From IMG/VR virus record IMGVR_UViG_2700989509_000016: a stretch of 6,977 nt of DNA, one strand, 5' to 3'. This stretch comes from a virus. Lineage: Duplodnaviria > Heunggongvirae > Uroviricota > Caudoviricetes. This document shows, piece by piece, positions 1 to 6,977 of the stretch (its first letter is position 1; every line of letters begins with the position of its first letter). A program made the position numbers and the translations under genes. The notes under the pieces are model-generated. The model saw only the letters and a program-made list of their open reading frames with translations. It was not told the origin of the DNA and ran no database searches.

Positions 1-589
1 CTTCTGCTGCACTTTGTGATGACTCACTGGCTTTTTGAGCGGCCGCAGAAGCCGAGGACGAGGACGCATCCTCTGACTGCTTTGCTGAGGCTGCACTTTC
101 TGCCGCCTGCCGGGCTGACTCCGATGCCTCCCCTGCTGAAGTGTCAGCATTTGCAGCGCTCTCTTCTGCCTGACTGGCTGATATGCCGGCATTCCTCGCT
201 GACGTCTCCGCCTCTCCGGCATTCTTCTTCGCCTCCTCAGCGTGACGCGCCGCTTCTTCCACCATCAGTTCAAAACGACGCAGTGCCTCCGGCCGGACGT
301 CATCCTCCGACATGGCACCGAGAAAATCATTCAGCGTACCCGGTTGAGAATCTTCATACACGGTGATGGTCCCGGCATGTGACGGCGGGAATCCTTCCAC
401 CAACAGAATGACGCTGTACTGACCGTACTCAACGTCCATGCTGTAACGACCGGCTTCATCCGGATTTTCAGAGGCCACCGTGTTCACCACCACCGTGCTG
501 CTGGTCCGTCTGGCTTTCAGTTGAATGGTGCAGTTCTCTACCGGTTTTCCTGTGCCGTCTTTCAGTACACCTGAAATCTTTACTGCCAT
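1..589 (-). CDS. stf: Side tail fiber protein Stf, N-terminal part (5' partial in window: start codon at 587-589, gene runs off the left edge)
   Basis: Minus-strand translation from ATG (revcomp of 587-589) is open for 196 codons to the window edge: MAVKISGVLKDGTGKPVENCTIQLKARRTSSTVVVNTVASENPDEAGRYSMDVEYGQYSVILLVEGFPPSHAGTITVYEDSQPGTLNDFLGAMSEDDVRPEALRRFELMVEEAARHAEEAKKNAGEAETSARNAGISASQAEESAANADTSAGEASESARQAAESAASAKQSEDASSSSASAAAQKASESSQSAAE. The first ~100 aa closely match my memory of lambda Stf (orf-401), followed by the Ala/Ser/Glu-rich shaft repeats typical of Stf. GGGGTGA Shine-Dalgarno about 5 nt upstream. Position after lom matches lambda gene order. Absent from the ORF track, which lists no ORF that runs off the window edge. 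Confidence 0.85.
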   Translation of the reverse strand, partial: MAVKISGVLKDGTGKPVENCTIQLKARRTSSTVVVNTVASENPDEAGRYSMDVEYGQYSVILLVEGFPPSHAGTITVYEDSQPGTLNDFLGAMSEDDVRPEALRRFELMVEEAARHAEEAKKNAGEAETSARNAGISASQAEESAANADTSAGEASESARQAAESAASAKQSEDASSSSASAAAQKASESSQSAAE

Positions 590-600
590 ATTCACCCCAC

Positions 601-627
601 AAAAAAGCCCGCCTGAACCGGCGGGCT
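601..627 (-). terminator. Rho-independent terminator downstream of lom (minus strand)
   Basis: Perfect 8-bp GC-rich stem (606-613 pairs with 620-627; core GCCCGCC / GGCGGGC) with a 6-nt loop, followed on the minus strand by a T-run (plus-strand AAAAAA at 601-606). Lies 27 nt after the lom stop codon. Confidence 0.6.
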
Positions 628-653
628 GTCATAACACTGTGTTACCTGGCTAA

Positions 654-1253
654 TCAGAACTTATAACCGACACCCACGATGAAACCGTCAGTGCGCCAGT
701 CGCCACTGCCGGAGCCTTCATAAGCGACATCAATGGCCACGGATTCGGTCGGGTTAAACTGCACGCCAGCTCCCCACGCCAGAGACGTGTTGCTGTGGCG
801 ACCGTCATCACTTCCGGTCAGCACATCGTGCGTTTTCCCCTTGTTGTCAGTTACGCGAAGATAATCCCCGGAGAAAGTCGACACACGGCTGTAAGCCACA
901 CCCGCCATCGCATACGCGCTGAACCATTCATTCACGCGTACAGACGGCCCCGCCATCACGCTGAACCAGCGGTTACGCACGGAATCTTCATGCCAGCGGG
1001 TATCGCTGTAACGGGTAAGCTGGCGATTCTTGTCTCCTGCATAGCTGAATGACGTCACCATTCCCAGAGTGTCCGTAAACTCATAACGGTATTTCACGTT
1101 AATCCCGTTCAGATCATCGCTGCCGGAAACGTTCGTCGAGGCATGAAGATAGCCCGCGCTCAGCGTGGACTGATGTTCAGACGCCCATGCAGGCGCACCG
1201 GATACGGCCAGACAGATGGCTGCGGACAAAATGGCGGCATAAAGTTTACGCAT
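654..1253 (-). CDS. lom: Outer membrane protein Lom (Ail/Lom/PagC family beta-barrel), prophage moron
   Basis: 199-aa ORF with an N-terminal signal peptide ([24 protein letters not shown]) and the C-terminal beta-strand [23 protein letters not shown] ending in Phe, matching my memory of lambda Lom. Internal blocks GINVKYRYE and SVMAGP...AYAMAGVA also match. GAGG Shine-Dalgarno upstream. Sits immediately downstream of J as in lambda. Confidence 0.93.
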
Positions 1254-1274
1254 AATTACCTCTCGCTTTTCTGC

Positions 1275-1301
1275 AATAAAAAAGGCGTCATTTCTGACGC
1301 C
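1275..1301 (-). terminator. Rho-independent terminator between J and lom (minus strand)
   Basis: Hairpin GGCGTCA (1284-1290) / TGACGCC (1295-1301) with a 4-nt loop, followed on the minus strand by TTTTTTATT (plus-strand AATAAAAAA at 1275-1283). Located 18 nt after the J stop codon and directly ahead of the lom ribosome-binding site. Confidence 0.6.
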
Positions 1302-1319
1302 CGTTATGGGTTATAAAAT

Positions 1320-4721
<3,402 letters not shown>

Positions 4722-4740
4722 TCACGCTCCATAAACGACA

Positions 4741-4760
4741 AAACCGCCCGCAGGCGGTTT
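4741..4760 (-). other. Perfect palindromic hairpin in the I-J intergenic region
   Basis: AAACCGCC (4741-4748) / GGCGGTTT (4753-4760) with a 4-nt loop CGCA. Sits between the I stop (4779-4781) and the J ribosome-binding site. No strong T-run on either strand, so not called as a terminator. Confidence 0.35.
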
Positions 4761-4778
4761 CACATAAAACATTTTTCA

Positions 4779-5420
4779 TCAGCGACCAATCACCACAACC
4801 TGACCACCATCACCTTCATCTGCTGTGCTGATCTCCTGAGATACCACCCGCGACCCCACACGCATTTCACCGTACAGAACGGGCAGGACATTGCCCTGGG
4901 CAACCATATTATCCAGTGAAGAAAAATAGGTGTTCTGTTTGCCGTTATCCGTTGTCTGTGTGCGGGGGGTTTTGGGTTTAGGGGCCAGCATCTGTGCAAC
5001 ACCGCCAAGCGTCATACTGGCACCGAGAGAAAACAGCAGATTACTCGCCATAATTCCTACCCCCGGCATCCATATAGCAACCGCCATAACAGCCGCCCCC
5101 AGCACAGCCTGAAACACACCGCCACTTTTGGCTCCTGCCAGACGCGGCACGATATGGATCACAGCACCATTTGCCAGCGGTTCATTAAGACGGGCTGATA
5201 ATTCATTTTCGCCTGCATCACGCCCGGCAATCCGTACCTGATACCAGCCGTCACTCAGTTTCTGACGAAACACCGGGAGCTGTGTGGCCAGTGCGCGGAT
5301 GGCTTCAGCCCCCGTTTTCACACGAAGGTCGATGCGGCGGCCAAATCGTTGCAAATCCCCGTAAAGGCAGATGCGCGCCATGCCCGGTGACGCCAGAGGG
5401 AGTGTGTGCGTCGCTGCCAT
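4779..5420 (-). CDS. I: Tail tip assembly protein I
   Basis: 213-aa ORF. The N-terminus MAATHTLPLASPGMARICLYGDLQRFGRRIDLRVKTGAEAIRALATQL and C-terminus TPRTQTTDNGKQNTYFSSLDNMVAQGNVLPVLYGEMRVGSRVVSQEISTADEGDGGQVVVIGR match lambda gpI as I recall it. Its 5' end overlaps the 3' end of K by 103 nt in a different frame, the same arrangement as lambda K/I. Confidence 0.9.
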   Translation of the reverse strand: MAATHTLPLASPGMARICLYGDLQRFGRRIDLRVKTGAEAIRALATQLPVFRQKLSDGWYQVRIAGRDAGENELSARLNEPLANGAVIHIVPRLAGAKSGGVFQAVLGAAVMAVAIWMPGVGIMASNLLFSLGASMTLGGVAQMLAPKPKTPRTQTTDNGKQNTYFSSLDNMVAQGNVLPVLYGEMRVGSRVVSQEISTADEGDGGQVVVIGR

Positions 5421-5917
5421 TTGTCGGTATACCTCTCTCGTTTGCTCAGTTGTTCAGGAATATGGTGCAGCAGCTCGCCGTCACCACAGTAAATGGCGGC
5501 ATGATTCGGCACCGATGAACCAAAACAGCACAGCAGCACATCGCCCGGCTGCGCCGCTGACAACGGCACCTGATACAGCCCTGTGGCCTCCAGATTATCC
5601 AGATAGAGATTCTGACCGTGACGCCACCAGTCATCCTCGCGGTGAAAATCCGGAATCTCAATCCCCGCCAGATGGTAAGCATCCCGGAACAGCGTGTAAC
5701 AGTCCGTCACCCCGTGCTCAAAGCGCCGCCCGGTAAGATGCGGCACACAGCGGAACTTGTGAATCGCCCCCCGGCAGACCAGCCACCACGGCAAATCACT
5801 CTGCACCTGCAGCCGCCGGTCAGCCTCACTCAGCCAGGGCAGACCACCGGGATGACTGTGGACCAGCGCCACAATCTCACCCTGCATTTCTGCCTGCAGC
5901 CAGTCTTCCGGCGACAT
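5318..5917 (-). CDS. K: Tail tip assembly protein K (MPN/JAMM metalloprotease-like plus NlpC/P60 domains)
   Basis: Matches lambda gpK as I recall it, taking the ATG at 5915-5917 as the start (199 aa, MSPEDWLQAEMQGEIVALVHSHPGG...). Contains a JAMM motif H-x-H-x7-S-x2-D (HSHPGGLPWLSEAD) and an NlpC/P60-like Cys/His (GVTDCYTLF ... VPNHAAIY). The ORF track extends it 12 codons upstream to a GTG at 5953, which I consider less likely. Confidence 0.88.
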   Translation of the reverse strand: MSPEDWLQAEMQGEIVALVHSHPGGLPWLSEADRRLQVQSDLPWWLVCRGAIHKFRCVPHLTGRRFEHGVTDCYTLFRDAYHLAGIEIPDFHREDDWWRHGQNLYLDNLEATGLYQVPLSAAQPGDVLLCCFGSSVPNHAAIYCGDGELLHHIPEQLSKRERYTDKWQRRTHSLWRHRAWRASAFTGICNDLAAASTFV

Positions 5918-5968
5918 ACGGAAATACGCCTCCGGCTCACCGGAGATATTCACGCAGGGGAAATATCT

Positions 5969-5990
5969 GTAAGCGTACAGCCTGAACCGT
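5969..5990 (+). repeat. Putative left terminal inverted repeat (IRL) of the IS66-family element
   Basis: Starts with GTAAGCG. The exact length cannot be determined because the right end (IRR) is outside the window. A short internal palindrome GTCAGA-A-TCTGAC lies just inside at 5994-6006. Confidence 0.45.
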
Positions 5991-6039
5991 CTGGTCAGAA
6001 TCTGACGAATTAGACAAAGTGGTGTCCACCAAATAAGTA

Positions 6040-6441
6040 GTGGGAACCAAAGTATCAGATATGCAGAAAAATGTGACTCCCGGCAGGCGAAAAGGCTGCC
6101 CTAATTATCCTCCCGAATTTAAACAGCAGCTCGTTGCTGCCTCCTGTGAACCCGGGATATCCATCTCAAAACTTGCTCTTGAAAATGGCATTAACGCCAA
6201 TCTGTTGTTCAAATGGCGACAACAATGGCGCGAGGGAAAGCTGCTATTACCTTCTTCAGAGAGCCCCCAGCTACTTCCTGTGACTCTCGATGCAGCTGCC
6301 GAACAGCCAGAATCGCTCGCAGAGGACCCGGAAACCCTCAGTATCAGCTGTGAGGTAACGTTCCGGCACGGGACGCTCCGCTTCAATGGCAATGTCAGCG
6401 AAAAGCTCCTGACTCTGCTGATACAGGAACTGAAGCGATGA
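6040..6441 (+). CDS. tnpA: IS66-family accessory protein OrfA (TnpA, helix-turn-helix)
   Basis: ORF-track 133-aa protein MGTKVSDMQKNVTPGRRKGCPNYPPEFKQQLVAASCEPGISISKLALENGINANLLFKWRQQW..., recognisable as IS66/ISEc8-type OrfA. The start is uncertain: 6040 is a GTG, and the first ATG is at 6061 (which would give 126 aa, MQKNVTPG...). Stop TGA at 6439-6441 overlaps the orfB ATG. Confidence 0.82.
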   Translation: MGTKVSDMQKNVTPGRRKGCPNYPPEFKQQLVAASCEPGISISKLALENGINANLLFKWRQQWREGKLLLPSSESPQLLPVTLDAAAEQPESLAEDPETLSISCEVTFRHGTLRFNGNVSEKLLTLLIQELKR

Positions 6442-6785
6442 TCCCGTTACCTTCCGGGACCAAAATTTGGCTGGTTGCCGGTATCACCGATATGAGAAAT
6501 GGCTTCAACGGCCTGGCTGCGAAAGTACAGACGGCGCTGAAAGACGATCCCATGTCCGGCCATGTTTTCATTTTCCGGGGCCGCAGCGGCAGTCAGGTTA
6601 AACTGCTGTGGTCCACCGGTGACGGGCTGTGCCTCCTGACCAAACGGCTGGAGCGTGGGCGCTTCGCCTGGCCGTCAGCCCGTGATGGCAAAGTGTTCCT
6701 TACGCAGGCGCAGCTGGCGATGCTGCTGGAAGGTATCGACTGGCGACAGCCTAAGCGGCTGCTGACCTCCCTGACCATGCTGTAA
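6438..6785 (+). CDS. tnpB: IS66-family OrfB (TnpB, IS66 Orf2-like protein)
   Basis: 115-aa ORF MIPLPSGTKIWLVAGITDMRNGFNGLAAKVQTALKDDPMSGHVFIFRGRSGSQVKLLWSTGDGLCLLTKRLERGRFAWPS..., the conserved IS66 OrfB family sequence. ATGA start/stop overlap with orfA indicates translational coupling. Confidence 0.9.
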   Translation: MIPLPSGTKIWLVAGITDMRNGFNGLAAKVQTALKDDPMSGHVFIFRGRSGSQVKLLWSTGDGLCLLTKRLERGRFAWPSARDGKVFLTQAQLAMLLEGIDWRQPKRLLTSLTML

Positions 6786-6812
6786 ATCTCTTTATCCTGG
6801 TTGTCACAGAAT

Positions 6813-6834
6813 AAGCCCGGTAAAATACGGGCTT
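6813..6834 (+). other. Stem-loop immediately abutting the orfC start codon
   Basis: AAGCCCG (6813-6819) / CGGGCTT (6828-6834) with an 8-nt loop GTAAAATA. The stem ends 1 nt before the ATG at 6835, so it would occlude the ribosome-binding region of the transposase gene. Confidence 0.35.
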
Positions 6835-6977
6835 ATGAACGACATCTCTTCTGACGACATCTTCCTGCTGAAACAGCGCCTGGCCGAACAGGAAGCGCTG
6901 ATCCACGCCCTGCAGGAAAAGCTGAGCAACCGGGAGCGCGAAATAGACCATCTGCAGGCGCAGCTGGATAAACTCCG
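6835..6977 (+). CDS. tnpC: IS66-family transposase OrfC (TnpC), N-terminal 47 codons; 3' partial at window edge
   Basis: ATG at 6835 followed by MNDISSDDIFLLKQRLAEQEALIHALQEKLSNREREIDHLQAQLDKL, a leucine-zipper-like coiled-coil N-terminus characteristic of IS66 transposases. Position after orfA/orfB matches IS66 architecture. Absent from the ORF track, which lists no ORF that runs off the window edge. Confidence 0.85.
   Translation, partial: MNDISSDDIFLLKQRLAEQEALIHALQEKLSNREREIDHLQAQLDKL

What the first reader, a model, noticed from the sequence alone, without database searches (positions are those of the whole stretch)
5918..6977. IS66-family element inserted about 51 bp upstream of tail gene K, cutting K-I-J off from upstream sequence
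Lambda-like sequence ends at about 5968 and an IS66-type terminus (GTAAGCG...) begins at 5969, with the IS genes on the opposite strand to the tail genes. In lambda, K-I-J are transcribed as the distal part of the long late operon. An IS of more than 2.4 kb here would be strongly polar, or would mark a deletion of the upstream tail genes. Either way the prophage is probably tail-defective (cryptic) unless an outward promoter in the IS end drives K-I-J. The stretch reading toward K contains only weak -35/-10-like hexamers.
Basis: partly seen in the sequence, partly recalled or inferred. Interest (0 to 1): 0.5.

Follow-up and report, generated by a model that had tools for sequence, protein, structure and literature searches.

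The report
ISEc8 insertion inside prophage tail gene K
A common E. coli jumping gene (ISEc8) has landed inside tail-assembly gene K of a lambda-like prophage, not upstream of it as first thought, cutting off the gene's first 31 codons; this is an ordinary way for prophages to become defective.

Summary
Lambda-like sequence stops at 5968, and an IS66-family end (GTAAGCGTACAG...) starts at 5969, with tnpA, tnpB and the start of tnpC on the strand opposite the tail genes. The element is ISEc8: 1-3 mismatches in 1009 bp against complete 2442-bp copies.

The interpretation needs correcting. The "51 bp upstream of K" reading rests on lambda's reference annotation (K = 199 aa). That annotation comes from one missing G in the 1982 sequence. 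Three independently sequenced lambdas and all close relatives have a 247-aa K that starts 5 nt after L. The IS therefore sits between K codons 31 and 32. It removes the start codon and the N-terminal part of the JAB peptidase domain, including its conserved glutamate (E19).

A near-identical prophage without the IS (JASO01000010.1; 2 mismatches in 5968 nt) shows the empty site and an intact tail operon, so the insertion is recent.

The window is a whole draft contig that breaks inside the IS. Whether the K stub and gene L follow the IS in this strain could not be determined. A different IS66 element, ISEc22, sits 2 bp away in K in two complete genomes as a simple insertion.

Verdict: a known element causing an ordinary gene disruption; low interest.

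The parts
5969..6977 (+). Left 1009 bp of an ISEc8 (IS66-family) element; the window, a whole contig, ends inside it
   Evidence: 1-3 mismatches per 1009 bp against complete 2442-bp ISEc8 copies; RefSeq annotation of the matches
5969..5981 (+). Left terminal inverted repeat core, GTAAGCGTACAGC
   Evidence: In complete copies, 13 of 13 terminal bases match the reverse complement of the right end, with partial matching further in; terminus fixed by alignment
5961..5968 (.). Target octamer AAATATCT next to the IS end; expected to be duplicated beyond the IS right end if this is a simple insertion
   Evidence: Present once at the empty site in L016, GGGGAA|AGATATTT|CCCC; ISEc8 makes 8-bp duplications in 9 of 11 complete copies examined
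6061..6441 (+). tnpA (126 aa), IS66 accessory protein
   Evidence: PF01527, E = 1.6e-12; NF047595, 97.7 bits against a cutoff of 74
6438..6785 (+). tnpB (115 aa), IS66 accessory protein; its ATG overlaps the tnpA stop (ATGA)
   Evidence: PF05717, E = 1.2e-38; NF033819, 120 bits; overlap seen
6835..6977 (+). First 47 codons of tnpC (transposase), cut by the contig end
   Evidence: Same position as the 1539-nt ISEc8-family transposase gene in complete copies; sequence within the 1-3 mismatches
5318..5968 (-). 5'-truncated tail-assembly gene K: codons 32-247 of a 247-codon gene; lacks start codon, ribosome-binding site and codons 1-31
   Evidence: Alignment to intact K in L004, L016 and lambda. 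Pfam NlpC_P60 is complete, but Prok-JAB matches only profile positions 45-103 of 114, against 3-112 in intact K
5915..5933 (-). Internal ATG (5917-5915, codon 48 of K) preceded by GGAGG (5933-5929, 11-nt spacer); the start used for the 199-aa 'K' in lambda's reference and in this contig's gene calls
   Evidence: Sequence; the 199-aa gene call in L007; a ribosome-binding site is annotated at the same place in lambda imm21
4779..5420 (-). Tail assembly gene I, intact; overlaps the 3' end of K
   Evidence: PF06805, E = 3.4e-24; the exact 191-aa product occurs in many intact prophages
1320..4718 (-). Tail tip / host specificity gene J (1132 aa), intact
   Evidence: ORF; Pfam families listed; one amino-acid difference from L016 (C500S)
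654..1253 (-). lom (Ail/Lom outer-membrane protein), intact
   Evidence: PF06316, E = 4.7e-119
1..589 (-). 5' part of the side tail fibre gene (stf-like), cut by the other contig end
   Evidence: PF08400 phage_tail_N on the gene call; translation

Best explanation
A copy of the known insertion sequence ISEc8 (IS66 family, 2442 bp) transposed recently into tail-assembly gene K of a lambda-like prophage in an E. coli strain. The strain is represented by draft assemblies GCA_000965715.1 and GCA_000965555.1.

The IS lies between K codons 31 and 32, in the orientation opposite to late transcription. It separates the K promoter-proximal end (start codon, ribosome-binding site and the first 31 codons, including the JAB-domain glutamate E19) from codons 32-247.

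Shown: the position, identity and orientation of the IS; the true length of K; the existence of a near-identical empty-site prophage.

Inferred: full-length K cannot be made. At best a 199-aa fragment could be translated from internal Met48, which has a GGAGG 11 nt upstream. That fragment would have a broken JAB domain and an intact NlpC/P60 domain. gpK is required for lambda tail assembly, so the prophage is most likely unable to build tails on its own, unless a co-resident lambdoid prophage supplies K.

Not resolved: whether the K stub, L, M, H and the rest still lie directly beyond the IS in this strain.
For: - IS terminus at 5969 and 8-bp target duplications in other copies.
- 99.7-99.9% identity to ISEc8.
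- IS66 TnpA and TnpB families on the + strand.
- The closest uninterrupted relatives have a 247-aa K starting 5 nt after L, and the window's homology stops 93 nt into it.
- Lambda's 199-aa K comes from one missing G: three independent lambda sequences give 247 aa.
- Intact K has Prok-JAB over residues 3-104 plus NlpC_P60 over 111-224. The remnant starts at JAB profile position 45.
- E19 aligns with the conserved E-x-C-G glutamate of a solved JAB protein, 2kks.
- L016 (JASO01000010.1) matches window 1-5968 with 2 mismatches and no gaps. It carries an intact K and the whole upstream head and tail operon, with the octamer present once.
- The junction is absent from 5,426 complete E. coli genomes but present in two sister draft assemblies.
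- gpK is required for tail assembly (PMC12617516). K is a JAB + NlpC/P60 protein predicted to process I (PMC1779556).
- PGAP annotates the analogous ISEc22-split K in E110019 as two pseudogene pieces.
Against: - No experiment shows that loss of K residues 1-31 (or 1-47) abolishes function. Iyer et al. note natural K versions with only the NlpC/P60 domain.
- An internal start with a good Shine-Dalgarno sequence exists.
- The IS right end and its flank are not in the window, so the gene could be part of a larger rearrangement rather than a simple insertion.
- E. coli genomes carry a median of 3 K-homologous regions, so K could be supplied in trans.
Confidence: 0.88

Rival explanations
1. Simple insertion, with the rest of the prophage intact. 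Beyond the IS right end lie a second AAATATCT, K codons 31 to 1, then L, M, H and the remaining late operon. On this reading the only lesion is the split K.
For: - The insertion is recent: 2 differences in 5968 nt from an intact prophage, and the IS is nearly identical to other copies.
- 9 of 11 complete ISEc8 copies are simple insertions with 8-bp duplications.
- The independent ISEc22 insertion 2 bp away in E110019 and F8704-2 is a simple insertion, with the K stub, L, M, H, T, G, V and U following.
Against: - The exact tape-measure protein H (all 7 contigs listed) and head decoration protein D (all 8 contigs listed) of the intact L016 prophage are not on record in either JZEB or JZEC. At the divergence seen in the window, D in particular should usually be identical.
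- The predicted 34-aa stub is not in the protein collection, though short pseudogene pieces are rarely called.
- The predicted right junction was not found in any searchable collection.
Confidence: 0.55
2. The IS marks a deletion or rearrangement. Recombination between ISEc8 copies, or an adjacent deletion, removed or relocated the K 5' end and the upstream tail and head genes, leaving a K'-I-J-lom-stf remnant.
For: - Exact H and D proteins of the otherwise near-identical prophage are absent from both assemblies.
- 2 of 11 ISEc8 copies examined lack matching duplications, which indicates IS-mediated rearrangement happens.
- ISEc8 is multicopy in such strains.
- Remnants with upstream tail genes deleted exist, for example L021, where K directly follows terminase A.
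Against: - There is no direct evidence.
- The absence of exact proteins could reflect mosaic differences upstream, single substitutions, fragmented assembly or gaps in the index.
- The retained target octamer fits either scenario.
Confidence: 0.35
3. One reading: an intergenic insertion 51 bp upstream of an intact K, whose main effect is transcriptional polarity on K-I-J.
For: Lambda's reference annotation starts K at the ATG equivalent to window 5917. The gene callers for this contig also aa.
Against: - The frame is open and conserved for 47 more codons in all relatives and in three resequenced lambdas.
- Those codons complete the JAB domain.
- PGAP calls the gene 247 aa.
- Antisense ISEc8 has no more terminator-like sites than shuffled sequence.
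Confidence: 0.04
4. Assembly artefact: a chimeric contig joining prophage and IS reads.
For: The contig ends in a repeat, and both contig ends lie in repeated sequences.
Against: - The join is exactly at the IS terminal base.
- It is next to an A/T-rich octamer typical of ISEc8 targets.
- It is reproduced 100% in a second assembly.
- Draft contigs normally run a short way into a repeat before they break.
Confidence: 0.02

Closest known systems
ISEc8 (IS66 family), as annotated in E. coli O157:H7 chromosomes and pO157 plasmids
   Same: 99.7-99.9% nucleotide identity over the 1009 bp present. Same tnpA-tnpB-tnpC order with an ATGA overlap, the same GTAAGCGTACAG terminus, and an A/T-rich target.
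   Different: Only the insertion site differs. This K junction is absent from 5,426 complete E. coli genomes. The right 1433 bp are not in the window.
ISEc8 insertion in nu1 of prophage Sp4 of E. coli O157 Sakai (Asadulghani et al. 2009, PMC2669165)
   Same: The same IS inactivates an essential late gene of a lambdoid prophage. That paper also shows that morphogenesis-defective prophages can still be packaged and transferred with help from co-resident prophages.
   Different: A different gene is hit (terminase small subunit rather than tail assembly K), in a different strain.
ISEc22 (IS66 family) insertion in K of prophages in E. coli E110019 and O39:NM F8704-2
   Same: Same gene, same orientation, and an insertion point only 2 bp away (duplication ATATCTTT against target AAATATCT). 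K is split into a short N-terminal stub and a remnant of about 217 codons.
   Different: A different element (2454 bp; about 82% identity where alignable, less elsewhere) in a prophage 96% identical in K-I. There both ends are visible, and it is a simple insertion.
Lambda gpK / TAPK (JAB + NlpC/P60 tail assembly protein)
   Same: The remnant is 2 amino acids different from the L004 K over residues 32-247 and lies next to I and J as in lambda.
   Different: It lacks residues 1-31 and so the first third of the JAB domain, including E19. Lambda's reference entry (199 aa) is itself a truncated annotation.

Membership tests
IS66 family / ISEc8 | tnpA accessory gene (HTH) | tested here: met
   PF01527, E = 1.6e-12; NF047595, 97.7 bits against a cutoff of 74
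IS66 family / ISEc8 | tnpB (IS66 Orf2-like) overlapping the tnpA stop | tested here: met
   PF05717, E = 1.2e-38; NF033819, 120 bits against a cutoff of 50; ATGA overlap at 6438-6441
IS66 family / ISEc8 | tnpC DDE transposase | tested here: inconclusive
   Only the first 47 codons are in the window. They lie within the stretch that differs at 1-3 of 1009 bases from copies that encode a 512-aa ISEc8-family transposase
IS66 family / ISEc8 | Terminal inverted repeats starting GTAAGCG | tested here: met
   The left end at 5969 is identical to the left end of complete copies, whose right ends are its inverted repeat (13 of 13 terminal bases). The right end of this copy is outside the contig
IS66 family / ISEc8 | 8-bp target-site duplication | not testable with these tools
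   The right flank lies on another contig of a draft assembly that could not be reached. 9 of 11 other copies have an 8-bp duplication
IS66 family / ISEc8 | Near-identity to named ISEc8 copies | tested here: met
   1-3 mismatches in 1009 bp
Lambda tail assembly protein K (JAB + NlpC/P60) | Complete N-terminal JAB domain with E...HxH...S..D motif | tested here: not met
   The remnant matches only Prok-JAB profile positions 45-103. E19 and the start codon are missing. HSHPGGLPWLSEAD is retained
Lambda tail assembly protein K (JAB + NlpC/P60) | C-terminal NlpC/P60 domain | tested here: met
   PF00877, profile positions 1-105 of 105, E = 2.3e-13
Lambda tail assembly protein K (JAB + NlpC/P60) | Position between L and I in the tail operon | tested here: inconclusive
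   I follows and overlaps K as in lambda. L is not visible because the IS and the contig end intervene

The most novel reading that the evidence does not exclude
The near-palindrome GGGGAAAtatcTTTCCCC at K codons 29-35 may be a genuine insertion hot spot for IS66-family elements. Two different family members, ISEc8 here and ISEc22 in E110019 and F8704-2, landed 2 bp apart in the same orientation. If so, knocking out K would be a recurrent, possibly selected, route by which E. coli disarms lambdoid prophages while keeping I-J-lom-stf. It would also reveal a target preference for a family whose target choice is poorly described.
Probability: 0.2. Interest if true: 0.35.

Novelty: already known. 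Interest (0 to 1): 0.15.

Why it matters
For this strain, one of its lambdoid prophages has most likely lost the ability to assemble tails on its own. That is the usual first step of prophage decay, and ISEc8 is already documented disrupting nu1 in Sakai prophage Sp4.

The more useful by-product is a caution for annotation. The lambda reference record (NC_001416 / J02459) under-calls K as 199 aa because one G is missing. Anyone, human or model, who reads lambdoid K genes against that reference will mistake the first 47 codons for an intergenic region, as happened here.

Tried and rejected
1. Finding the IS right flank in the window's own strain.
- The window is a whole contig.
- The exact stub is not in the 15-billion-protein collection.
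- The exact H and D proteins of the intact prophage are not in JZEB or JZEC.
- The portal look-up showed only 10 of 20 contigs.
- Accession lists stop at four entries, so they could not show whether KJW accessions (this strain's series) were present.

2. Exact-pattern scans for the left junction and the predicted right junction in GTDB representative genomes and JGI metagenomes gave 0 hits in all four scans. The plasmid collection has no junction either.

3. Outward promoter: there is no sigma-70-like match on either strand in window 5300-6977 or in a complete ISEc8. These are consensus scans only.

4. Apparent IS start at about 5961: rejected. It results from similar A/T-rich target octamers.

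5. The identical octamer AAATATCT at another ISEc8 copy (L002) as evidence of target specificity: rejected. Hits were ranked by how far they extended into the window's flank, which selects for such coincidences. Other duplications show only A/T richness.

6. Contig L026 ends 3 nt past the insertion point. I considered it a possible second instance of the insertion, but it contains no IS sequence, so I rejected it.

7. Literature on the lambda K length error: nothing was found in the searchable library.

Full report
**What is in the window.** The minus strand carries a lambda-like distal tail module. It comprises the 5' part of a side-tail-fibre gene (1-589), lom (654-1253), J (1320-4718, 1132 aa), I (4779-5420) and a K-homologous reading frame that stays open up to 5968. 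The plus strand from 5969 carries tnpA (6061-6441), tnpB (6438-6785, overlapping the tnpA stop) and the first 47 codons of tnpC (from 6835). Pfam and NCBIfam place tnpA and tnpB in the IS66 family.

**Checking the boundary.** BLAST against 5,426 complete E. coli genomes found thousands of ISEc8 copies, but none with this junction. The matches seemed to begin near 5961. Aligning the window with three complete copies in unrelated contexts shows that the shared sequence starts exactly at GTAAGCG (5969), and that each copy has its own 8-bp target duplication. Complete copies are 2442 bp, and their 13 terminal bases form perfect inverted repeats. The window's 1009 bp of IS differ from them at 1-3 positions.

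**Where the IS sits relative to K.** The closest uninterrupted relatives (E. coli YZ3-11, 99.1%; phage mEp332) annotate K as a gene starting 5 nt after the L stop. It is 247 codons in YZ3-11. The window's homology ends 93 nt inside that gene.

Translating lambda's gap shows the same N-terminal peptide (MTQTESAILAHARRCAPAESCGFVVSTPEGERYFPCVNISGEPEA...) in another frame. The alignment shows that the reference lacks one G after coordinate 14266 (GGAGGC-TATTTCC). Three independently sequenced lambdas (PV340536, lambda imm21 OM418625, LC730321) have the G and a continuous 247-codon K. The window has the G too.

Full-length K contains a complete Prok-JAB domain (residues 3-104) followed by NlpC/P60 (111-224). 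The window's remnant matches the JAB profile only from position 45. Alignment to the solved JAB protein 2kks places K's E19 on the conserved E-x-C-G glutamate. The IS therefore lies between codons 31 and 32 and removes the start codon, the ribosome-binding site and that glutamate. The HxH...S..D part of the motif and the NlpC/P60 domain remain.

**Source and the empty site.** An exact-protein look-up shows that the window is the entire contig JZEB01000022.1 (GCA_000965715.1, 6977 bp). A sister assembly (JZEC01000025.1) carries a 100% identical junction. The contig ends inside the IS, as short-read assemblies do at repeats.

The neighbouring I protein led to JASO01000010.1 (2.4 Mb). One source names the identical K fragment as coming from E. 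coli O145:H28. This contig matches window 1-5968 with 2 mismatches and no gaps, and the match stops exactly at the IS boundary. It carries an intact K preceded by L, M, H, T, G, V, U, Z, the head genes and terminase. The empty site reads GGGGAA|AGATATTT|CCCC, with the octamer present once. This is the pre-insertion allele, so the insertion is recent and lineage-specific.

**What lies beyond the IS.** This could not be determined.
- The 34-aa stub predicted by a simple insertion is not in the protein collection.
- Both junctions are absent from the GTDB representatives, the JGI metagenomes, the plasmid collection and the complete E. coli genomes.
- The exact H and D proteins of the intact prophage, for which every carrying contig was listed, are not recorded in either JZEB or JZEC. 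D is only 110 aa, and the window differs from the intact prophage at only 2 of 5968 bases. This is a weak hint that the upstream region in this strain is absent or different.
- Fragmented assembly, mosaicism or index gaps could also explain that absence.

I put a simple insertion at about 0.55 and a deletion or rearrangement at about 0.35.

**An informative parallel.** The synthetic right-junction query unexpectedly matched two complete genomes, E110019 and O39:NM F8704-2. There a different IS66-family element, ISEc22 (2454 bp, about 82% identity to the window's IS where alignable), is inserted in K in the same orientation. It is flanked by the duplication ATATCTTT, which puts it 2 bp from the window's site. 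The K stub and L, M, H, T, G, V and U follow directly. PGAP annotates the two K pieces there as pseudogenes, which matches my reading. Both insertions lie in the A/T island of the near-palindrome GGGGAAAtatcTTTCCCC.

A survey of eleven complete ISEc8 copies shows A/T-rich targets without a strict consensus. Nine have intact duplications and two have mismatched flanks, which indicates recombination. One copy shares the window's exact octamer, but that is probably a selection artefact of how hits were ranked.

**Consequences.** gpK is required for lambda tail assembly and is not found in virions (PMC12617516; PMC10721106). It is predicted to act as a peptidase on the ubiquitin-like protein I (PMC1779556). 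Full-length K cannot be made from this locus.

A 199-aa fragment could be translated from Met48, which has a GGAGG 11 nt upstream, if a transcript reaches it. The IS's own genes are transcribed away from K. No sigma-70-like promoter faces K in the window or in a complete ISEc8. Read antisense, the IS has a single weak terminator-like hairpin, fewer than in shuffled sequence. From general knowledge, lambda late transcription is Q-antiterminated. If the late operon is still adjacent, I and J may well be transcribed across the IS, so strong polarity is not the main issue.

The most likely outcome is a prophage that cannot build tails by itself. It could still be complemented, because E. coli genomes carry a median of three K-homologous regions. 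Defective O157 prophages, including Sp4 with an ISEc8-disrupted nu1, are known to be packaged and transferred with help from co-resident prophages (PMC2669165).

**Verdict.** It is wrong on the key point: the IS is inside K, not upstream of it. This is a known IS causing an ordinary gene disruption in a prophage. Interest is low. The by-products are the missing base in lambda's reference K and a possible IS66-family hot spot in K.

Noticed in passing
L006 (NC_001416) 13300-15600; missing base after record coordinate 14266: The lambda reference sequence (also J02459) lacks one G that is present in three independently sequenced lambdas and in all relatives. This splits a 247-codon K ORF that starts 5 nt after L. 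It explains the annotated 199-aa K and the 148-nt 'L-K gap'. Some newer records still copy the short annotation (for example OM418625), while PV340536 annotates 247 aa.
   Followed up: yes
L046 (CP035751.1, E110019) 2939-6144; L047 (CP050998.1, F8704-2), same coordinates: ISEc22, a different IS66-family element (2454 bp), is inserted in K 2 bp from the window's ISEc8 site. It has the same orientation, an 8-bp duplication ATATCTTT, and intact L-M-H-T-G-V-U beyond it. Both sites lie in the near-palindrome GGGGAAAtatcTTTCCCC, which may be an IS66-family hot spot.
   Followed up: partly
L005 (PV340541.1, phage mEp332), about 3760-3790: mEp332 has a different 1-nt deletion, in the G-run at K codons 29-30 (GGA-GGGG). 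Its K is therefore annotated from a downstream start (233 aa). This is either a homopolymer sequencing error or a real frameshift in a plaque-forming phage.
   Followed up: no
L049 (CP076232.1) 1721-4162; L051 (CP148386.1) 1707-4148: Two of eleven complete ISEc8 copies have non-matching 8-bp flanks. This indicates recombination between IS copies or adjacent deletions. The other nine have intact, A/T-rich duplications with no strict consensus.
   Followed up: partly
L013 (LM995993.1) 6073-10037: A near-identical prophage carries a partial tandem duplication of M-L-K. The second K copy is 240 aa and 98.8% identical to the window's K region.
   Followed up: no
L021 (CP148401.1) 7131-10037: In another E. 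coli prophage, an intact 247-aa K directly follows terminase large subunit A. The portal-to-L genes are deleted and IS3-family elements lie nearby. This is an example of the 'upstream tail genes deleted' state.
   Followed up: no
window 1-589 and 6835-6977: Both ends of the window are contig ends inside repeated sequences: the side-tail-fibre gene and ISEc8 tnpC. The window is a complete 6977-bp draft contig, so it cannot be extended from its own record.
   Followed up: yes
window 3221 and 4205 (gene J): These are the only two differences from the intact-prophage contig JASO01000010.1. One is a C500S change in J and the other is a synonymous change at codon 172.
   Followed up: yes
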